From Rothia sp. (in: high G+C Gram-positive bacteria) (GTDB taxonomy: Bacteria > Actinomycetota > Actinomycetes > Actinomycetales > Micrococcaceae): a DNA stretch of 64,000 bases. The notes below the pieces were generated by a model. It was given only the letters and a program-made list of their open reading frames with translations. It made no database searches and was not told the origin of the DNA. The translations under genes were made by a program, and so were the position numbers. The DNA lies in NCBI GenBank assembly GCA_034090985.1, contig JAXDRN010000009.1, forward strand, positions 11,563 through 75,562, read 5' to 3'. This document shows, in pieces, positions 2,137-59,064 of this stretch; the stretch's first letter is position 1, and each line of letters begins with the position of its first letter.

Positions 2137-3194
2137 TATTTATTAAGACCTTCTACATTATCAATTATCTGGCTAACCCGAGCTTTACCAGATTCAGGAG
2201 AATAATTCTCGTACCAACGCCAATAATTTCTACTTACAACCTCTTCCAAGGTTTCACTTGAAGTAAGAAGGTGAGAAGAAATATCCATTAAGGTATCTGC
2301 AATTGATTGACTGCTGCCCCGCTGAGCTAGCCAGGGGTAGCCCTCCCCCACGATTGAAGGCAGGGCACCTGAGTTAGTCACCAGCAGGGGCACCTTAGCG
2401 CTCATTGCCTCAGCCGCAACTAGACCGAAGGGTTCATCCCACTGAGAGGGCATGGCAAGGCAATCTACCTGGGCAAAGAAGTCTTCAGGCTCAACCCAAC
2501 CAAGGGTGACCAAATCATCACCCAATCTGGCGAGGGCTTCTTCTACCCGGTTCTGCGCACCTTCCTTAACGAACCTTGCTTCACCACCAATCAGCAGCTT
2601 GAAGTGAATATCCTTCTGCTGCTGGTTGAGCTGGTAGATAGCATCAGCCAGGAGGTCTGTTCCCTTAATTTCTGAAACACGCCCCAGGAAACCTACAGCA
2701 AGCGTTGACCGATCCTGGGTTGTGGATTGAAGGGGTTTAGCTACTTCTGGCACCCAGTTCTCTAGGACGGTGCTACCGGCTACCCGTTCTGCCATAAAGG
2801 CACTAGGCACGAGGGTTAGCAGGGCTCCCCGGCGGGCAATTTTAGCCGCTAGCTTTTGGCCCCCAGTAGGTAGCTGGTGAAGGTGAACAATCCTGGGGCC
2901 TAGGCCTGCTGTTGCCAGGGAGGGAACAAGGCCATTGCACCAGAGCAGTTCCTTCCTGTTACGGCCCCTCCAGAGGCGAAGCTGGGCCATGTAGGACTTT
3001 CGGTCCTGGGCAGGAAGAACTAGGGTGGAAAAACCTTCATCAGCTGCTGCCTCTAGCAGTTCAGCCGGTTGGGCTGGACCAATAATGGTAACTGACTTAC
3101 CAAGGGATCGAAGGGCACGGGCCAGGTGAAGGAGCATAACCTCTCCCCCACCCATATCACCATTATTAGTTGCAATATAAACTTTCTTGCCCAA
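2136..3194 (-). CDS. Glycosyltransferase family 4
   Basis: GGGEVM N-terminal loop, GFLGRVSEIKG, EPFGLVAAEAM motif. Confidence 0.88.
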   Translation of the reverse strand: MGKKVYIATNNGDMGGGEVMLLHLARALRSLGKSVTIIGPAQPAELLEAAADEGFSTLVLPAQDRKSYMAQLRLWRGRNRKELLWCNGLVPSLATAGLGPRIVHLHQLPTGGQKLAAKIARRGALLTLVPSAFMAERVAGSTVLENWVPEVAKPLQSTTQDRSTLAVGFLGRVSEIKGTDLLADAIYQLNQQQKDIHFKLLIGGEARFVKEGAQNRVEEALARLGDDLVTLGWVEPEDFFAQVDCLAMPSQWDEPFGLVAAEAMSAKVPLLVTNSGALPSIVGEGYPWLAQRGSSQSIADTLMDISSHLLTSSETLEEVVSRNYWRWYENYSPESGKARVSQIIDNVEGLNK

Positions 3195-16680: not shown

Positions 16681-16827
16681 GAGGCTTATTCATAAGGGTA
16701 GGTGAAGCAGGTTCACAGCGAAGCTGCTGGCTCGGCGGCTGGCGTGAATCGCCTTGTGAGCGAAGCGAACCAGGCGAGAGGGTTGGCTGCGAGCGTGAGC
16801 CTGCGGAACCCCTTATGAATAAGGTTC
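16681..16827. mobile_element. MITE-like element (147 bp) with IS-type terminal inverted repeats
   Basis: Ends GAGGCTTATTCATAAGGG ... CCCCTTATGAATAAGGTTC; same termini at 54414, 54840 and 58255; flanked by AAA/AAA (possible 3-bp duplication). Confidence 0.75.
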
Positions 16828-54413: not shown

Positions 54414-54489
54414 GAAGCTTATTCATAAGGAGTTCCGCAGGCTCACGCTCGCTGTGAACCTGCTTCACCTACCCTTATGAATAAGCCTC
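54414..54489. mobile_element. Minimal MITE (76 bp)
   Basis: GAAGCTTATTCATAAGG ... CCCTTATGAATAAGCCTC; matches the reverse complement of the 16681 element with its middle deleted. Confidence 0.75.
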
Positions 54490-54493
54490 ATAT

Positions 54494-54772
54494 TCAATAT
54501 CTTCCCGACTGGGCAGCAATAACAGACGCCAGGAGAAAAGCAAACGGTATAGCAAAGACCGCCAATACTGCGCTTACAATAGCCATCTTTCTATTTTCTC
54601 CAAAGGCAAACAGGAAGAAGGATAGGGCAAAAAGAAAAGTAAGAGAGACTACCGTGATAAAAGTCTGAAAAGGAGTTTCGGTTCCCGTCAACAAAAGATA
54701 TATGTACCAAACAACAGTGGGGGCCAAAACTAGAAACCCCATGCACGAAAGAATCTTTTCTCTATTTTTCAC
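54494..54772 (-). CDS. Small 3-TM membrane protein of unknown function
   Basis: 92-aa ORF, GTG start with GGAG RBS, three hydrophobic stretches, AT-rich, between two MITEs. Confidence 0.6.
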   Translation of the reverse strand: MKNREKILSCMGFLVLAPTVVWYIYLLLTGTETPFQTFITVVSLTFLFALSFFLFAFGENRKMAIVSAVLAVFAIPFAFLLASVIAAQSGRY

Positions 54773-54839
54773 TGTTCATGCTCCATCTCAGACTTAAGGA
54801 TTCATATCTTATGCAAAGGGGTTACATACAGGATGCATG

Positions 54840-55160
54840 GAAGCTTATTCATAAGGGGTTCCGCAGGCTCACGCCTTCGCAAACTCAGGTGATTCCGCTC
54901 ACTCTTGAGTGCTGACGCACCCGCTTCGCTTCATCTACCGACTCTCTCGCCTGGTTCACTAGCTGGCTCGCAAGCTCGCCAGATTCACGCCCCGCCTTGC
55001 GGCGGATTCCGCACCCTCTTGTGTGCTACATCTTCGCTCGCCAGATGATTCACAACAGTTTCTTTTTTGCCTGCGGGCGGAAACTGTTGTTCATCCCGGT
55101 CACTTCATCCGGGCCAGCAACTTCGCTGCGAACCTGCTTCACATACCCTTATGAATTACC
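54840..55160. mobile_element. Long MITE variant (about 320 bp)
   Basis: Left end GAAGCTTATTCATAAGGGGTTCCGCAGGCTCACG; degenerate right end GAACCTGCTTCACATACCCTTATGAATTACC; internal blocks shared with the 16681 element. Confidence 0.7.
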
Positions 55161-55168
55161 ATCGATTA

Positions 55169-55255
55169 TTAAAAATGAATTACATGACAGATTCCACTGC
55201 CGCGTCAACTATGTTTCCGCTGGTTTCCATTTGACAGCAACACTTTGAGCATCAT
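55169..55255 (-). pseudogene. Second copy of the putative RiPP precursor, interrupted by TGA (MMLKVLLSNGNQRKHS*RGSGICHVIHF)
   Basis: Codon-by-codon homology to 58037-58141 with six synonymous third-position differences; TGA at 55205-55207 aligns to Arg CGA. Confidence 0.7.
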
Positions 55256-55315
55256 CGACCCTGAGTAAATATTATTTGAAAAAATGATTTAGATTATATT
55301 TGTGAAATATTTTAT

Positions 55316-55343
55316 ATTATCGCAAGATCTCCTGCTCTGTCAA
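55316..55343 (-). promoter_or_regulatory. Putative sigma70-type promoter for the second precursor copy
   Basis: TTGACA-N16-GATAAT with extended -10 TG, about 60 bp upstream of ATG 55255. Confidence 0.45.
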
Positions 55344-55367
55344 TGGGAAACTCTATTTATTTATAAT

Positions 55368-56627
55368 TTATGTTGATGGCGGCAAAGATGCCAAATATTT
55401 TGCCCAATCTTTCTGGCAGGGCATACCCATTAGATGAATATTTTTCATAGTAAAAATAGTGGCTATTAATATAAGTATGAAACACCAGATTAGAACCAAT
55501 GGTCGAGAAACATAGTACAATATAAATCCAACAAAAATTGGAGATAAAGAAGAACTTCCAAGGTTAATCAACGAAGCTGCGCTATTAACGCGCCCAATAA
55601 TGTCATCAGGGACAAGTAAGATTAAGTAACTCATTAGAATAACATTGATAGAGGGGACTAAAAAGAATATCAAAAAGGCACTTATGATATGCGCATAGTA
55701 GCTCTCTGTTAGAGAGTTTAAAATGATTTGAATTAATATTAAAAGAAATGAAGATGAGATAATTATTTTTGGTCGGAATCGATTAATAAAATAATTAGAT
55801 GCAAGTGACCCAATAAGCATGCCAGCACCCAAAGAGGCTGAGAAAAGTCCGATTTTCTGATAGTTTTCACCTTGCATCTGCATTGAGTATATATTTGTGA
55901 TCATAAATGCTGATATTGAAAAACTTACAATAACAGAGCCAATAAGAGTAGTAGATACACCCTTGGTGGTAAAAATCCATCTGAAACCGATGAGAATATT
56001 ATTCCAACTTGAAATTGAAGTTTCGGGGTTTGGTTGAAGGAACTTATTAAATGTTTTTTTCCGTAAAAGTATATTACTTAATAATGAAATTATTTCTAAA
56101 ATAAAAAGAGTTGAATAAACAAAAATAGTGCCAAAACTTACTAGTAACCCCCCTAATGGACCACCTGTTAAGGAGACAGAGGCATCCCTGGTCTGGTTAG
56201 TAGATAGAGCAGTTCCCAGCCTTTCTTCTGGTACAATATCCACTAGGGCAGCAGTGGAAGAAGAAGATGAATATCCACTACGTGCACCCATAAAAATATT
56301 TGCTATTAATAAGATAGCAAAAGATATCTCAAAAAATAACTCAAAGAAAAATAAAGATCCAGTAACAAGAAGACCCGCAATAGATGAATAGACTAAAATT
56401 TTTATTCTGTTCCATTTATCTGCGTGAATCCCCCCTATGAAATCAAAAATTCCTTCTGCTAGTACTCCTGCTGCAGCTATGAAACCAGCATAAATCGGGT
56501 TACCTGTAAGGTTCAGACAAATTAGAGGAATAATAAAGTTTCGTAGTGCTCCTAAAAGTTGTGCTGAAGTATCAGCACAGAGCCACGAAAGGTACCCTTG
56601 AACCTTTAATAATTTTTTCTCACTCAT
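55368..56627 (-). CDS. MFS exporter (MefA/EntS-like, DHA3-type)
   Basis: About 12 TM helices, motif A GGIHADKWNR, IVPEERLGTA.S, VPDDIIGRVNS; AT-rich; 5 bp downstream of the rSAM gene. Confidence 0.85.
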   Translation of the reverse strand: MSEKKLLKVQGYLSWLCADTSAQLLGALRNFIIPLICLNLTGNPIYAGFIAAAGVLAEGIFDFIGGIHADKWNRIKILVYSSIAGLLVTGSLFFFELFFEISFAILLIANIFMGARSGYSSSSSTAALVDIVPEERLGTALSTNQTRDASVSLTGGPLGGLLVSFGTIFVYSTLFILEIISLLSNILLRKKTFNKFLQPNPETSISSWNNILIGFRWIFTTKGVSTTLIGSVIVSFSISAFMITNIYSMQMQGENYQKIGLFSASLGAGMLIGSLASNYFINRFRPKIIISSSFLLILIQIILNSLTESYYAHIISAFLIFFLVPSINVILMSYLILLVPDDIIGRVNSAASLINLGSSSLSPIFVGFILYYVSRPLVLIWCFILILIATIFTMKNIHLMGMPCQKDWAKYLASLPPST

Positions 56628-56632
56628 TATCT

Positions 56633-57973
56633 TTATTTAACCCTTAAACCGCTGAGCATAGCTATATGGTCAAGACGTTTCTGAGGCGCATACTTATATG
56701 AAGGACAGGGAGAAACGTTATTATGCCATTGCTTTGGGCAGCTTCCTCCGCAAACCGGAAAAAAACTACATTTGTTACAGGGAAAATTACCCTGTTCAAT
56801 GTCAATAAGCCAGTCATCAAATTGATGTTTTGGCCTTAGCGTTGGTATTCCTAAGCTAATCAGATTTGTAAGAGAATCATTCTTTTCATGCTCAACTACT
56901 AATGGATATTCTGTGCAAGAAAATATGTTTCCGGTGGCACTAACCACTTCAGAATTTCTGGTAACAGCTGAACAAAGAACACCCATGGGGCGATCGGGGA
57001 ATACATTGTAAAAAAAACCGTATTTATTGAGATCATTAAATATATCGAGTTCAATGTTAGAAAATTCTTCTTGTGAAAGTTCAATAGATGAAATATCATT
57101 ACTCCAACTATAAATTGGTGCAATATTGAATTCGAAGCGTGGTGAAACCAAATCTTTGTCATATAGATATTTAACAAGATTTTTTATATCGCGGTAATTT
57201 CTATTGTCTAGATTTACCCGAATAATTACAACGGGCTCAACAGTAAAACGCCCGTTTTTAAATATCCTGAGGGAATCTATGATTTTATCAAAAGACCCAC
57301 CTGGTTTTTTTGATGGCCTATGACTATCATGAGTTTCTTTTGTTCCATCAATTGTAATATCAAATCGTGTAATATTACAATCATTTATAAGTGAATATAT
57401 TTTATCTTCCGTCAATAAAGATCCATTAGTTACAATATGGGCTGAATAATTGCAGGTACCTTCAGCTTCGCTTATAAATTCTTTGCTCAAATCAAGTATT
57501 GCTTTATAAGCTACGAGAGGCTCGCCTCCAAACCATCCAATTGATACAGTATTGACTGATTCAGTATTTATAGCCTCAAGAACTCTGCGTCTAACGATCT
57601 CTCTATGGTTTTTTGAAAGAGGCGATCTAAAATGACTTTGGCCGCAATAGTCACAGCCAAGGTTACACCATTGTGTTGGAAGTAGAATAAATGATCTAAA
57701 TGTGGGGTCTTCTGCGTTTAAACGTTGAAATTCTATAGCGGCATATAATTCTTCATCGTAGTTTTTATCAGTTAAAAACTTATTTTTTATGAGATAATTT
57801 TCTATATCATTAGGAATTTCTTTTAAATTCCCGCTAAGGATTTCTTCATGGTGGCTAGTTTTAATGGCGATGGATTTTGCACTCAGGGTATTATAGTATA
57901 TTTTGTAATTCTCATCTTCGCCGCCTCTTGTATATGAATTATTAGATATAATATTGTATCTACTTAATTTCAT
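56633..57973 (-). CDS. Radical SAM/SPASM-domain protein, probable RiPP maturase
   Basis: CNLGCDYC, WFGGEP, IVTNG, ITIDG; SPASM Cys array C...C...CNKC-x5-C-x3-C-x10-C; about 90-aa N-terminal extension resembling an RRE. Confidence 0.92.
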   Translation of the reverse strand: MKLSRYNIISNNSYTRGGEDENYKIYYNTLSAKSIAIKTSHHEEILSGNLKEIPNDIENYLIKNKFLTDKNYDEELYAAIEFQRLNAEDPTFRSFILLPTQWCNLGCDYCGQSHFRSPLSKNHREIVRRRVLEAINTESVNTVSIGWFGGEPLVAYKAILDLSKEFISEAEGTCNYSAHIVTNGSLLTEDKIYSLINDCNITRFDITIDGTKETHDSHRPSKKPGGSFDKIIDSLRIFKNGRFTVEPVVIIRVNLDNRNYRDIKNLVKYLYDKDLVSPRFEFNIAPIYSWSNDISSIELSQEEFSNIELDIFNDLNKYGFFYNVFPDRPMGVLCSAVTRNSEVVSATGNIFSCTEYPLVVEHEKNDSLTNLISLGIPTLRPKHQFDDWLIDIEQGNFPCNKCSFFPVCGGSCPKQWHNNVSPCPSYKYAPQKRLDHIAMLSGLRVK

Positions 57974-57996
57974 TTTATTTGGCCAATCTTAAAGGG

Positions 57997-58022
57997 GATG
58001 GGGGTGGAAAACCACCCCCATC
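57997..58022 (-). promoter_or_regulatory. GC-rich stem-loop between precursor and rSAM gene
   Basis: Perfect 11-bp stem GATGGGGGTGG-AAAA-CCACCCCCATC in AT-rich DNA. Confidence 0.7.
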
Positions 58023-58036
58023 TTGAAACCTAAAAT

Positions 58037-58141
58037 TTAGTTTTCTTCGGAATCAATCATGGTTTTTACAATAATGCAGAGACCGTTGCCTCGTCGGCCG
58101 TGTTCCTGCTGGTTTCCGTTTGACAGAGATACCTCGAGCAT
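58037..58141 (-). CDS. Putative RiPP precursor peptide, 34 aa (MLEVSLSNGNQQEHGRRGNGLCIIVKTMIDSEEN)
   Basis: AAGGAG-N5-ATG; lies directly upstream of the rSAM gene; reading frame supported by the homolog at 55169-55255; absent from the ORF track because it is under 60 aa. Confidence 0.78.
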   Translation of the reverse strand: MLEVSLSNGNQQEHGRRGNGLCIIVKTMIDSEEN

Positions 58142-58175
58142 CTTTACTCCTTAGCAATTCCAGAGGCTATTGTGC

Positions 58176-58200
58176 CCCAAGTCATATTTATGACTTGGGT
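58176..58200. promoter_or_regulatory. Operator-like palindrome upstream of the precursor
   Basis: CCCAAGTCATA-TTT-TATGACTTGGG, perfect 11-bp arms, no U-tract on either strand. Confidence 0.5.
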
Positions 58201-58254
58201 AGAGCATAGCATGATTGATGCCAATCTGGTTCTTTATGCTATCCGACACGCCGT

Positions 58255-59064
58255 GAGGGTTATTCATAAGGGGTACCCCACAGCCCAAAAGAGCAACCCA
58301 TGAACAACTGGAAACACCCGCCCATACAAGCCCAACGGACACCTGAAGCCTGTATGCAGAACCTGCCAGGTGCAACACCAGCGCGATGACCCGCTCTACC
58401 ACCGACCGTAGCTGATTGAGCACCCGATTATTTTCTTTCTGCTCCTTAGTTAGCCTCACCCCAGGCTTGCGCTTTGTCGGTATGGCCAGTCCCAAACCTA
58501 CCTAGCCCTTATCAGCCAAAGTCGAAGAATCAAGAAACTGATCTAGCCCGTGGGCTCTGAAGGGATAAGCATCATCTCTAGCTCCAGGTAACGGTTCTGT
58601 GATAGCTAAGAGCCTGCCATCGAGGGTGCAGATCACCTGATGGTTAAATCCTGCTCTTTTATACTGACCAGAGAAATTGTTTTTCCCTTGTGAGCGCCAG
58701 TTCCAGGTAGGGACAAGGGTTCGGTCAATCAGAAGAGAGCCAGGTGTTTTCAGGCTCTCTTCTCAGCTAGGGGACTAGTGGAGTGAGAGCTTTTTCTAGG
58801 GCCTGGGTCAGGGTGAGCCTGCTGGTTTTTGGTGTGGTTTGGTCTGGTTTAATCTGGTTTGGTCCAGGTGAGGTGGCTGGTGAGGGCTGTGATGAGTGTG
58901 GCGAATTGCGTAGCTGTTAGCCCGGTTGCACGCTGGTGTGGCAACAGTCTTTCCTGGTATGGTTTGAGAATATTTCTGGCGATTTATCCTCAAGATTGCC
59001 TGCAGGGTGGGGCCGTTGACTAGTTGGTGGGGGTTGGGGTGTGGACCCCTTATGAATAAGCCTC
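58255..59064 (-). mobile_element. Defective IS5-family-like (ISL2/IS1381-type) insertion sequence, 810 bp
   Basis: TIRs GAGGGTTATTCATAAGGGG / CCCCTTATGAATAAGCCTC enclosing transposase remnants. Confidence 0.8.
58270..58950 (-). pseudogene. DDE transposase pseudogene (DDE_Tnp_4-like); boundaries approximate
   Basis: Fragments TGLTATQFATLI, LLIDRTLVPTWNW, GFNHQVICTLDG, PGARDDA, LADKG*VGLG, RSVVERVIA; in-frame TGA and TAG plus frameshifts. Confidence 0.78.

What the first reader, a model, noticed from the sequence alone, without database searches (positions are those of the whole stretch)
55169..55255. Hidden second precursor copy, recently inactivated, that defines the conserved motif
MLKVLLSNGNQRKHS*RGSGIC aligns without gaps to MLEVSLSNGNQQEHGRRGNGLC. 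Six aligned codons differ only synonymously (GTA/GTG, AAC/AAT, CAC/CAT, CGA/CGC, GGT/GGA, TGC/TGT), direct evidence of protein-level selection in this frame. The single stop is a CGA-to-TGA transition, and conservation continues past it. The consensus is ML-x-V-x-LSNGNQ-x-x-H-x-x-RG-(N/S)-G-(L/I)-C. It has its own TTGACA/GATAAT promoter candidate. The cluster evidently once made two peptide variants.
Basis: partly seen in the sequence, partly recalled or inferred. Interest (0 to 1): 0.68.

Follow-up and report, generated by a model that had tools for sequence, protein, structure and literature searches.

The report
Dead second precursor gene, RiPP cassette
The flagged stretch is a real but broken second copy of a tiny precursor-peptide gene in a three-gene, horizontally acquired peptide-modification cassette of a Rothia bacterium; an unbroken version survives in a related metagenome contig, so this is an ordinary pseudogene in a rare, uncharacterised cassette.

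Summary
On the minus strand, 55255..55169 reads MMLKVLLSNGNQRKHS*RGSGICHVIHF*. It aligns without gaps to the first 22 codons of a 34-codon ORF at 58141..58037 (48/66 nt; best of 200 shuffles 36).

The two copies bracket a radical-SAM/SPASM gene and an MFS exporter gene. This cassette is about 34% G+C in a 57% G+C Rothia genome and sits between two copies of one IS/MITE family.

Related cassettes keep the upstream peptide almost unchanged, with differences mostly at third codon positions. One contig (L001) carries an intact copy 2 with CGA where the window has TGA.

The enzyme is 35% identical over its full length to SycC of Streptomyces ureilyticus. Peptides next to 54 of 80 relatives of the enzyme share an N-x-x-C motif. 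The paralogues' common NG[LI]C is therefore the predicted Asn-Cys thioether site.

The window copy also has Asn19 changed to Ser and an altered ribosome-binding site.

"Recently inactivated" is not secure. The same TGA occurs in a lineage 7% diverged (L004), which is closer to the intact allele than to the window.

Chemistry, expression and the function of the product are untested.

The parts
55169..55255 (-). Copy 2 (A2), a pseudogene of a second precursor peptide: MMLKVLLSNGNQRKHS*RGSGICHVIHF*. The premature TGA is at 55207..55205 (codon 16). The Asn19-to-Ser change (AGT) is at 55198..55196. Cys22 is at 55189..55187. The final TAA is at 55171..55169.
   Evidence: Searches cover sequence, alignment and chance level. 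Searches cover the alleles in L001 (intact) and L004 (same TGA). Searches show the TGA in 13 runs.
55316..55343 (-). Sigma-70-type promoter candidate for copy 2: TTGACA, a 16-nt spacer, then TG-C-GATAAT.
   Evidence: One search gives 11 of 12 matches with TG, the best in 54700-58800. In one search the -35 box is invariant in the window, L001, L004 and L005. The -10 box is GATAAT in the window and L001 and GATAGT in L004 and L005, and the spacer varies at four positions. One search gives the chance estimate.
55256..55263 (-). Ribosome-binding region of copy 2. It reads AGGGTCG in the window and AGGGGTG in L001 and L004.
   Evidence: Searches show two window-specific substitutions in the purine-rich stretch. 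That these weaken translation is an inference.
58037..58141 (-). Copy 1 (A1), the intact 34-codon precursor gene MLEVSLSNGNQQEHGRRGNGLCIIVKTMIDSEEN*, with AAGGAG six nt upstream. Asn19 is at 58087..58085 and Cys22 at 58078..58076.
   Evidence: Orthologues are present in L001, L002, L003, L004 and L006. Window against L002 has 15 of 17 differences at third positions, pN 0.04 and pS 0.97. No gene with this product is on record in the public gene collection.
57997..58022 (-). G+C-rich hairpin between the precursor gene and the radical-SAM gene (11-bp stem).
   Evidence: One search gives -25.3 kcal/mol with z -3.0. Hairpins of unrelated sequence sit at the same place in L002 (z -5.7) and L003 (z -4.9).
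56633..57973 (-). Radical-SAM/SPASM peptide maturase, 446 aa, intact.
   Evidence: PF04055. The best NCBIfam matches, TIGR04463 and CefB, fall far below their cut-offs. The CxxxCxxC motif and seven C-terminal Cys are invariant or nearly invariant in 24 homologues. It is 35% identical to SycC over 447 aa, E 8e-102. The AF2 model has pLDDT 92.5 and an N-terminal three-strand, three-helix domain. The top PDB fold match is CteB 5WHY, E 1e-16.
55368..56627 (-). MFS transporter, 419 aa, intact; the presumed exporter.
   Evidence: PF07690 and PF05977. It matches the H+ antiporter and EntS-like NCBIfam models below their cut-offs. It follows the radical-SAM gene in L001-L006.
54848..55155 (.). 308-bp MITE-like element with inverted ends TTCATAAGGGG / ACCCTTATGAA and TTA on both sides. 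It begins 13 nt after the copy 2 stop codon.
   Evidence: (I4, D2). The same end sequence continues into unrelated DNA in other runs (loose ends).
58263..59056 (.). 794-bp remnant of an insertion sequence of the same family, with a DDE_Tnp_4 transposase fragment. It bounds the cassette on the copy 1 side.
   Evidence: One search gives PF13359 at E 2e-4, below the cut-off, as a fragment with stops. (D2, I6) and 75 support the ends.
58178..58197 (-). Palindrome CAAGTCATAAATATGACTTG upstream of copy 1, a possible operator or -10 region.
   Evidence: It is conserved in the window, L001 and L004 and partly in L002. Its function was not tested.

Best explanation
The stretch is the pseudogene of a second precursor peptide (A2) belonging to a compact peptide-modification cassette. 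The cassette runs A1 precursor, radical-SAM/SPASM maturase, MFS exporter, A2 precursor.

Shown:
- A2 is a paralogue of A1 over exactly the first 22 codons and evolved under purifying selection as a coding sequence.
- An intact allele, MMLKMSLSNGNQRKHGRRGNGICHVIYF, exists in a related cassette.
- The window allele carries a premature TGA at codon 16, upstream of the conserved NG[LIV]C. It also carries Asn19-to-Ser and two substitutions in the ribosome-binding stretch.
- A1, the enzyme gene and the transporter gene are intact.

Inferred:
- In the intact state, A2 is transcribed from its own promoter.
- Its N-terminal roughly 18 residues, about 80% identical to those of A1, are bound by the enzyme's N-terminal recognition domain.
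- The enzyme abstracts the beta-hydrogen of Asn19 and joins it to the thiol of Cys22. This gives a four-residue thioether ring, as the homologue SycC and the analogue NxxcB do.
- The MFS protein exports the product.
- A1 and A2 would then yield two products with the same ring and different C-terminal tails: IIVKTMIDSEEN for A1 and HVIHF or HVIYF for A2.
- No LanD-type flavoprotein is present and Cys22 is not C-terminal. The ring is therefore expected to be a saturated thioether, not the aminovinyl form made by the syc cluster.
- In this Rothia strain only the A1 product can be made.
For: Paralogy beyond chance:
- 48/66 nt against at most 36/66 in shuffles.
- The same pair is reported independently as repeat D1.

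Coding constraint:
- A1 orthologues have 15/17, 11/13 and 13/16 differences at third codon positions, with pN 0.04-0.06 and pS 0.7-0.98.
- A1 against the intact A2 has 11/15 at third positions, pN 0.11 and pS 0.61.

Alleles and population:
- L001 has an intact CGA allele. L004 has the same TGA.
- The TGA is present in contigs from 13 runs.

Enzyme family:
- PF04055, with invariant CxxxCxxC and SPASM cysteines.
- 35% identity to SycC over the full length, E 8e-102.
- L042 is the S. ureilyticus YC419 syc locus. It holds the 22-aa SycA, an MFS gene, the radical-SAM gene and a PF02441 flavoprotein, as described in PMC10989515.
- The AF2 model has an N-terminal three-strand, three-helix domain, and its best PDB fold match is the thioether synthase CteB.

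The motif as family signature:
- Small ORFs next to 54 of the 80 related enzymes end in or contain N-x-x-C.
- All 30 peptides found in loci with a SycD-like flavoprotein end at that Cys.
- 23 of 24 peptides in loci without the flavoprotein have residues after the Cys, as here.
- The window and L001-L006 have no such flavoprotein.

Chemistry precedent:
- NxxcB links Cys-S to Asn-C-beta (PMC9389541, PMC8326336).
- SycC abstracts the Asn19 beta-hydrogen and links it to Cys22 (PMC10989515).

Promoter.
Against: - No expression data exist; no RNA run could be listed.
- No product has been observed, and the chemistry is inferred from a 35%-identical enzyme.
- pN/pS among the three A2 alleles is 0.4-0.7 but rests on 5-7 differences. 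Relaxed constraint is suggested, not demonstrated.
- Which residues form the leader and which form the released product is not known.
- The cassette encodes no protease.
- Persistence of an otherwise clean ORF with the same TGA in two lineages 7% apart is slightly odd for a neutral pseudogene.
Confidence: 0.85

Rival explanations
1. A2 is not a second substrate of this enzyme. It is the orphaned first gene of a neighbouring cassette (A2, enzyme 2, transporter 2) whose remainder was deleted by the insertion-sequence or MITE activity next to it.
For: A2 has its own promoter and sits where a following operon would begin. An IS or MITE end lies within 13-45 nt downstream in every allele. A1 and A2 are saturated at synonymous sites (pS 0.6-0.7), so the copies are old.
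Against: Three lineages share the same short tail, the same stop and the same downstream junction, so any deletion predates them. The first 22 residues are 17/22 identical between A1 and the intact A2, including the whole SLSNGNQ and HGRRGNG[IL]C blocks, so the resident enzyme would be expected to accept A2 in any case. No fragment of a second radical-SAM or MFS gene is present.
Confidence: 0.08
2. The TGA allele is still functional. The stop might be read through, or the 15-residue N-terminal fragment (MLKVLLSNGNQRKHS) might itself be a product, for example a leader-only peptide that titrates or regulates the maturase. The TGA/CGA difference would then be a selected on/off polymorphism.
For: The same TGA is present in two lineages 7% apart, while the rest of the ORF, the promoter -35 box and the spacing stay intact. 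The tree ((L001, L004), window) requires either two independent CGA-to-TGA events or one reversion.
Against: The window allele has further damaging changes exactly where function would need conservation: Asn19-to-Ser and the ribosome-binding stretch. Codon 15 differs in all three alleles: GGT, GAT and AGT. One run carries an additional Arg12-to-Trp change. CGA-to-TGA is a C-to-T transition at a CpG, one of the easiest nonsense mutations. I did not check for selenocysteine or recoding signals.
Confidence: 0.05
3. The similarity is a non-coding direct repeat, for example recombination sites bracketing the mobile cassette, and the reading frame is coincidental.
For: The two copies lie at the two ends of the low-G+C cassette in direct orientation, next to IS ends.
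Against: Differences are concentrated at third codon positions in this frame, both between paralogues and among orthologues. The frame is open in L001. L002 and L003 carry the cassette with A1 only and no IS ends. The repeat ends exactly at the start codon and at Cys22.
Confidence: 0.02

Closest known systems
syc cluster of Streptomyces ureilyticus YC419: SycA precursor, SycB MFS, SycC radical-SAM, SycD LanD-like flavoprotein (AviCamCys formation; PMC10989515)
   Same: The maturase is homologous over its full length (35% identity, E 8e-102). Both have a short precursor with Asn19 and Cys22 in the same register, and an MFS exporter in the cluster. The reaction proposed for the window (Asn beta-carbon joined to Cys sulfur) is the one reported for SycC.
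   Different: There is no LanD-like flavoprotein. Cys22 is internal, followed by 12 residues in A1 or 5 in A2, so oxidative decarboxylation to an enethiol is not possible as such. The MFS proteins are not detectably orthologous (no tblastn hit at 1e-5). The leader sequences are unrelated. The host is an animal-associated Rothia, and the cassette is a 34% G+C insert. There are two precursor genes.
NxxC subfamily of streptococcal RaS-RiPPs: NxxcA and NxxcB of Streptococcus orisratti and S. porci (PMC9389541, PMC8326336)
   Same: Both have an N-x-x-C motif with the Cys three residues after the Asn (Asn20-Cys23 there, Asn19-Cys22 here). Both have a single SPASM radical-SAM enzyme and no flavoprotein. 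A saturated beta-thioether is the expected product in both. Both occur in animal, including pig, microbiota.
   Different: No shp/rgg quorum-sensing genes adjoin the cassette. The host phylum differs.
CteB and PapB ranthipeptide (SCIFF) synthases
   Same: CteB is the best structural match (5WHY, Foldseek E 1e-16) and the second-best profile match to a solved structure. The domain order is the same: recognition domain, radical-SAM core, SPASM domain.
   Different: Sequence identity is only 18-19%. SCIFF precursors have six Cys with Thr or Asp acceptors. The NCBIfam PapB and SCIFF maturase models score far below their cut-offs.
RiPP clusters with several precursor genes, some decayed (general knowledge)
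   Same: One enzyme set serves paralogous precursors that share a leader and differ elsewhere. Loss of individual precursor copies by nonsense mutation is ordinary.
   Different: Here the second gene lies downstream of the transporter gene under its own promoter, not in tandem with the first.

Membership tests
SycC-like / NxxC-type radical-SAM thioether RiPP cassette | Radical-SAM core with a CxxxCxxC motif plus a SPASM domain with auxiliary-cluster cysteines | tested here: met
   PF04055 at E 7e-19. C103, C107 and C110 are invariant, and C334, C353, C399, C402, C408, C412 and C423 are invariant or nearly invariant in 24 homologues.
SycC-like / NxxC-type radical-SAM thioether RiPP cassette | Full-length homology of the maturase to a characterised member (SycC) | tested here: met
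   35% identity and 54% positives over 447 aa, E 8e-102, against the radical-SAM gene of the S. ureilyticus YC419 locus L042.
SycC-like / NxxC-type radical-SAM thioether RiPP cassette | Precursor peptide with Asn three residues before a Cys (N-x-x-C) | tested here: met
   A1 has NGLC at residues 19-22. All orthologues and the L001 and L004 copies of A2 have NG[ILV]C. The motif is present in peptides beside 54 of 80 related enzymes. The window A2 itself has SGIC after a stop, so the pseudogene no longer meets the feature.
SycC-like / NxxC-type radical-SAM thioether RiPP cassette | N-terminal peptide-recognition (RRE-type) domain in the maturase | tested here: met
   The AF2 model (pLDDT 92.5) has strands at 7-9, 22-28 and 33-38 and helices at 39-47, 55-63 and 72-87 ahead of the core. 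The full-length fold match is to the RRE-bearing CteB. No RRE profile was run.
SycC-like / NxxC-type radical-SAM thioether RiPP cassette | Asn C-beta to Cys S thioether actually formed | not testable with these tools
   This needs co-expression or an in vitro assay with mass spectrometry and NMR.
syc (AviCamCys) clusters in the strict sense | LanD-like flavoprotein (SycD) in the cluster | tested here: not met
   tblastn with SycD found no hit in the window or in L001-L006 at E 1e-5, but found hits in 32 of the 80 actinomycete loci.
syc (AviCamCys) clusters in the strict sense | The Cys of N-x-x-C is the C-terminal residue of the precursor | tested here: not met
   A1 continues for 12 residues and A2 for 5. 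All 30 peptides in SycD-positive loci end at that Cys, and 23 of 24 in SycD-negative loci do not.
Streptococcal NxxC RaS-RiPP subfamily (NxxcA/NxxcB) | Enzyme orthologous to NxxcB | not tested
   No NxxcB sequence could be obtained. No supplements were held for the papers tried, and there is no NCBIfam model or PDB entry for it.
Streptococcal NxxC RaS-RiPP subfamily (NxxcA/NxxcB) | Adjacent shp/rgg quorum-sensing operon (PMC11851443, PMC13361665) | tested here: not met
   The cassette holds only A1, the radical-SAM gene, the MFS gene and A2, between IS/MITE ends. No regulator gene lies inside it. The small ORFs were not individually screened.
Pseudogene of a once-functional gene | The disabling mutation is real and not an assembly error | tested here: met
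   The TGA is present in contigs from 13 runs, with no alternative base at 55207.
Pseudogene of a once-functional gene | An intact orthologue exists, and the past history shows purifying selection | tested here: met
   L001 carries an intact allele. A1 against A2 gives pN 0.11 and pS 0.61, with 11 of 15 differences at third positions.
Pseudogene of a once-functional gene | Relaxed constraint since inactivation | tested here: inconclusive
   All four window-specific substitutions in the ORF are non-synonymous (S5L by 2 nt, G15S, N19S). pN/pS among alleles is 0.4-0.7, against 0.04-0.18 historically, but rests on only 5-7 differences.

The most novel reading that the evidence does not exclude
The A2 stop codon may not be simple decay. 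Given the cassette tree ((L001, L004), window), the same CGA codon was either knocked out twice independently or knocked out once and restored. Either history would mean that selection acts on whether the second peptide is made. The cassette would then be a MITE-flanked, horizontally mobile producer of a new flavoprotein-independent Asn-Cys thioether peptide pair in animal-associated Rothia.
Probability: 0.15. Interest if true: 0.55.

Novelty: new member of a known kind. Interest (0 to 1): 0.35.

Why it matters
The finding itself is modest: RiPP clusters often carry extra or decayed precursor genes. Its practical value lies in three points.

First, comparing the two paralogues with relatives of the enzyme pins down the functional unit of an unannotated precursor. 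That unit is 22 residues with Asn19 and Cys22, in the same register as SycA. The public gene collection I queried holds no gene with the A1 product.

Second, it identifies a rare cassette. Only one true peptide cluster was found among 1.84 billion representative proteins. The cassette belongs to the SycC-like enzymes without a LanD partner, and I found no characterised member of that subclass outside streptococci.

Third, the intact L001 allele gives a natural second substrate with a different tail for testing the enzyme.

The host group, Rothia near R. nasimurium, is a core member of the pig tonsil microbiota (PMC11954270) and is of interest for antimicrobial production (PMC9676035).

Tried and rejected
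- A degenerate DNA pattern for N-G-x-Q-x-x-H-x-x-R-G-N-G-x-C scanned against JGI metagenome contigs gave 0 hits.
- No RNA-seq run holding the cassette could be listed, so transcription of either copy is untested.
- The genome-contig scan with the enzyme alignment returned only relatives of 31-40% identity, and no GTDB species-representative genome carries this cassette.
- An exact look-up of the A1 peptide found no called gene.
- Gene conversion from A1 was considered as the source of the CGA in L001 and rejected. The base between the two L001-specific 'A1-like' positions (third position of codon 15) remains the A2 state.
- A 17-nt inverted match between the A2 promoter and the A1 coding sequence (I7) was considered and set aside. 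By my own rough estimate, not a tool result, about 0.6 such matches are expected by chance in this region.
- P0252, the second hit of the representative search, is an unrelated repetitive ORF.

Full report
**Observation**

The finding lies on the minus strand. Positions 55255..55169 read MMLKVLLSNGNQRKHS*RGSGICHVIHF*. They align without gaps to the first 22 codons of a 34-codon ORF at 58141..58037, MLEVSLSNGNQQEHGRRGNGLCIIVKTMIDSEEN*.

- the six purely synonymous codon pairs;
- TGA (55207..55205) opposite CGA;
- similarity continuing past the stop.

Identity is 48/66 nt. The next best ungapped match in the window is 35/66, and 200 shuffles reached at most 36/66. The repeat finder reports the pair independently (D1). 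The flanks do not align, so the repeat is confined to the region from the start codon to Cys22.

The promoter candidate is TTGACA-16-(TG)C-GATAAT at 55343..55316. It is the best consensus match in 4.1 kb. A match of that quality turns up somewhere in about 17% of shuffled regions. Its weight therefore comes from lying in the 112-nt gap just upstream of the ORF.

**Anatomy of the locus**

Read along the minus strand, the locus contains, in order:
1. a 794-bp insertion-sequence remnant (59056..58263) with a DDE_Tnp_4 fragment;
2. copy 1 (A1), preceded by AAGGAG;
3. a strong hairpin (58022..57997);
4. a 446-aa radical-SAM/SPASM gene (57973..56633);
5. a 419-aa MFS transporter gene (56627..55368);
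6. the promoter candidate and copy 2 (A2);
7. a 308-bp MITE-like element (55155..54848), starting 13 nt after the A2 stop codon.

These features rest.

The MITE-like element has the same terminal inverted repeat as the IS remnant (TTCATAAGGGG). That repeat gives 9 matches in the window against 1.4 expected by chance.

The two large genes are 34.5% G+C in a 57% G+C genome. The host is a Rothia of the R. nasimurium group: its threonine ammonia-lyase is 90-92% identical to that of R. nasimurium.

**Comparative evidence that both copies are, or were, genes**

The enzyme has very few close relatives. They are 96% (L001, L004, L005, L006), 69% (L003) and 64% (L002) identical, and everything else is at 40% or below.

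A1 is present upstream of the enzyme gene in every contig that reaches that far:
- L001: MLEVSLSNGKQQEHGRRGNGICVIVKTLIDSEEN
- L002: MLEVSLSNGSQQEHGRRGNGICIIVKTLVDEEND
- L003: MFEVSLSNGNQQEHGRRGNGVCIVVKTLDVSEEE

The nucleotide differences are almost all synonymous. Window against L002 has 15 of 17 differences at third codon positions, with pN 0.04 and pS 0.97.

A hairpin follows the stop codon in all three cassette types. The hairpin sequences are unrelated, with z-scores of -3.0, -5.7 and -4.9. This is the usual arrangement for over-producing a precursor transcript relative to its enzyme transcript.

A2 is found downstream of the MFS gene only in the window, L001 and L004. L002 and L003 have no second copy.

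In L001 the A2 gene is intact: MMLKMSLSNGNQRKHGRRGNGICHVIYF*, with CGA where the window has TGA.

A1 against the intact A2 has 11 of 15 differences at third positions, with pN 0.11 and pS 0.61. A2 was therefore kept as a coding gene for a long time after an old duplication.

**What the cassette is**

Pfam and NCBIfam place the enzyme among SPASM peptide maturases, but it falls below the cut-off of every named family.

A scan of species-representative genomes returned 80 relatives at 31-40% identity, mostly actinomycetes. One of them, L042, is the syc locus of Streptomyces ureilyticus YC419.
- The review PMC10989515 describes that locus as a 22-aa SycA, the MFS protein SycB, the radical-SAM enzyme SycC and the LanD-like SycD.
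- There, SycC abstracts the beta-hydrogen of Asn19 and links it to the decarboxylated C-terminal Cys22.
- I confirmed the gene content of L042.
- The window enzyme is 35% identical to SycC over 447 residues, E 8e-102.

Small ORFs beside 54 of the 80 relatives carry N-x-x-C at or near their C-terminus. Examples are ...NQVNVLC...SVNVFC...HVNIAC...GLGNGICG and ...VNAGCAEH.

A clean rule emerged from these loci:
- All 30 peptides found in loci with a SycD-like flavoprotein end at that Cys.
- 23 of 24 peptides in loci without the flavoprotein have residues after it.

The Rothia cassettes have no flavoprotein and an internal Cys. In both paralogues the Asn and Cys are residues 19 and 22, as in SycA.

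The streptococcal enzyme NxxcB makes a saturated beta-thioether between the Cys and the Asn of an N-x-x-C motif without any flavoprotein (PMC9389541, PMC8326336). That is the chemistry I infer here.

An AlphaFold model of the enzyme (pLDDT 92.5) has an N-terminal three-strand, three-helix domain of the peptide-recognition type. Its best PDB fold match is the thioether synthase CteB.

**State of A2 in the window**

Besides the TGA at codon 16, the window allele has three further kinds of change:
- Asn19-to-Ser at the predicted acceptor residue;
- Ser5-to-Leu in the conserved SLSNG block;
- two substitutions in the purine-rich stretch before the start codon.

All four window-specific substitutions within the ORF are non-synonymous.

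Contigs from 13 independent runs carry exactly this allele. One of them has an extra Arg12-to-Trp change.

L004 carries the same TGA but keeps Asn19. Codon 15 is different in each of the three alleles: GGT, GAT and AGT.

Over the whole cassette, L001 and L004 are 97% identical to each other and 93% identical to the window. Taking A1's CGA as the ancestral state, two histories are equally parsimonious:
- the stop arose twice; or
- the stop arose once and reverted in L001.

'Recently inactivated' is therefore not established. The data fit either an old lesion or a mutational hotspot, since CGA-to-TGA is a C-to-T change at a CpG.

**Mechanism proposed**

Shown:
- paralogy of the two copies;
- past purifying selection on both;
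- the disabling changes in A2;
- intact A1, enzyme and exporter genes;
- homology of the enzyme to SycC.

Inferred:
- Residues 1-18 act as a leader, which the enzyme's N-terminal domain binds.
- The enzyme makes an Asn19-Cys22 thioether ring.
- The MFS protein exports the product.
- An intact cassette makes two peptides with the same ring and different tails.
- This strain makes only the A1 peptide.

**Rivals**

- *Non-coding repeat.* This is refuted by the codon-periodic substitution pattern and by the open frame in L001.
- *Sequencing error.* This is refuted by agreement across 13 runs.
- *A2 as the orphaned first gene of a lost neighbouring cassette.* This remains possible (about 0.08). It would not change the conclusion that A2 is now a pseudogene.
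- *A functional TGA allele* (read-through, or a leader-only peptide). This is unlikely, given the additional damage at Asn19 and the ribosome-binding site (about 0.05).

**Novelty**

The kind is known: a precursor with N-x-x-C, a SPASM radical-SAM enzyme and a transporter.

This cassette differs from the characterised members in five ways:
- it lacks the flavoprotein of the syc cluster;
- it lacks the shp/rgg context of the streptococcal family;
- it has C-terminal follower sequences;
- it has a second, separately promoted precursor gene;
- it is a low-G+C insert between IS and MITE copies.

In L002 and L003 the cassette is likewise a low-G+C insert (0.38-0.40) in 0.59-0.61 G+C flanks, but without those IS ends.

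The peptide family is very rare. Only one true cluster was found among 1.84 billion representative proteins, and the A1 product is not on record as a called gene.

I found no paper describing the cassette in the library searches I ran.

The pseudogene itself is ordinary, so I score interest at 0.35.

Noticed in passing
window 16689-16819, 54422-54481, 54848-55155, 58263-59056: There is a family of elements with terminal inverted repeats TTCATAAGGGG, giving 9 matches against 1.4 expected by chance. It comprises three MITE-like copies (131, 60 and 308 bp) and one 794-bp remnant with a DDE_Tnp_4 transposase fragment. The 308-bp copy is flanked by TTA on both sides. The last two elements bracket the cassette like a composite transposon, and L001 and L004 have the same ends beside their cassettes.
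   Followed up: partly
window 58178-58197 (minus strand); L001, L004, L002 upstream of copy 1: The palindrome CAAGTCATAAATATGACTTG lies about 40 nt upstream of the A1 start codon. It is conserved in the close cassettes and partly in the 64%-identity cassette. It could be an operator overlapping the A1 promoter.
   Followed up: partly
window 57997-58022; L002 2068-2100; L003 121-152: A hairpin sits between the precursor gene and the radical-SAM gene. It is conserved in position and strength but not in sequence (z -3.0, -5.7 and -4.9). No equivalent hairpin follows copy 2.
   Followed up: yes
L007-L086 (80 loci with relatives of the enzyme): A rule holds across the relatives of the enzyme. Loci with a LanD-like flavoprotein have precursors that end exactly at the Cys of N-x-x-C (30 of 30). 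Loci without it have residues after that Cys (23 of 24). This suggests two chemical subclasses: an aminovinyl thioether and a saturated thioether.
   Followed up: yes
L002 2125-4725; L003 196-2800: The same cassette with A1 only occurs as a low-G+C insert (0.38-0.40) in 0.59-0.61 G+C flanks, in two other contexts without the IS ends. It has therefore spread between high-G+C hosts more than once. The donor is unknown.
   Followed up: partly
window 58037-58141: The intact precursor gene A1 is not on record as a called gene anywhere in the public gene collection (exact look-up). Only the L002 and L003 versions were called. The cassette in this genome is therefore probably annotated without its substrate.
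   Followed up: partly
L001 about 3180-3190, against window 55201-55212: The intact allele contains the palindrome GTCGAC (GGT CGA C). Both TGA alleles have lost it (GTTGAC and ATTGAC). Whether restriction-site avoidance or methylation-driven C-to-T mutation contributes to the recurrent change was not examined.
   Followed up: no
window 55335-55351 against 58112-58128: There is a 17-nt inverted match (88%) between the copy 2 promoter region and the SLSNGN-coding part of copy 1. My own rough estimate, not a tool result, is about 0.6 such matches by chance in this region, so it is probably a coincidence.
   Followed up: partly
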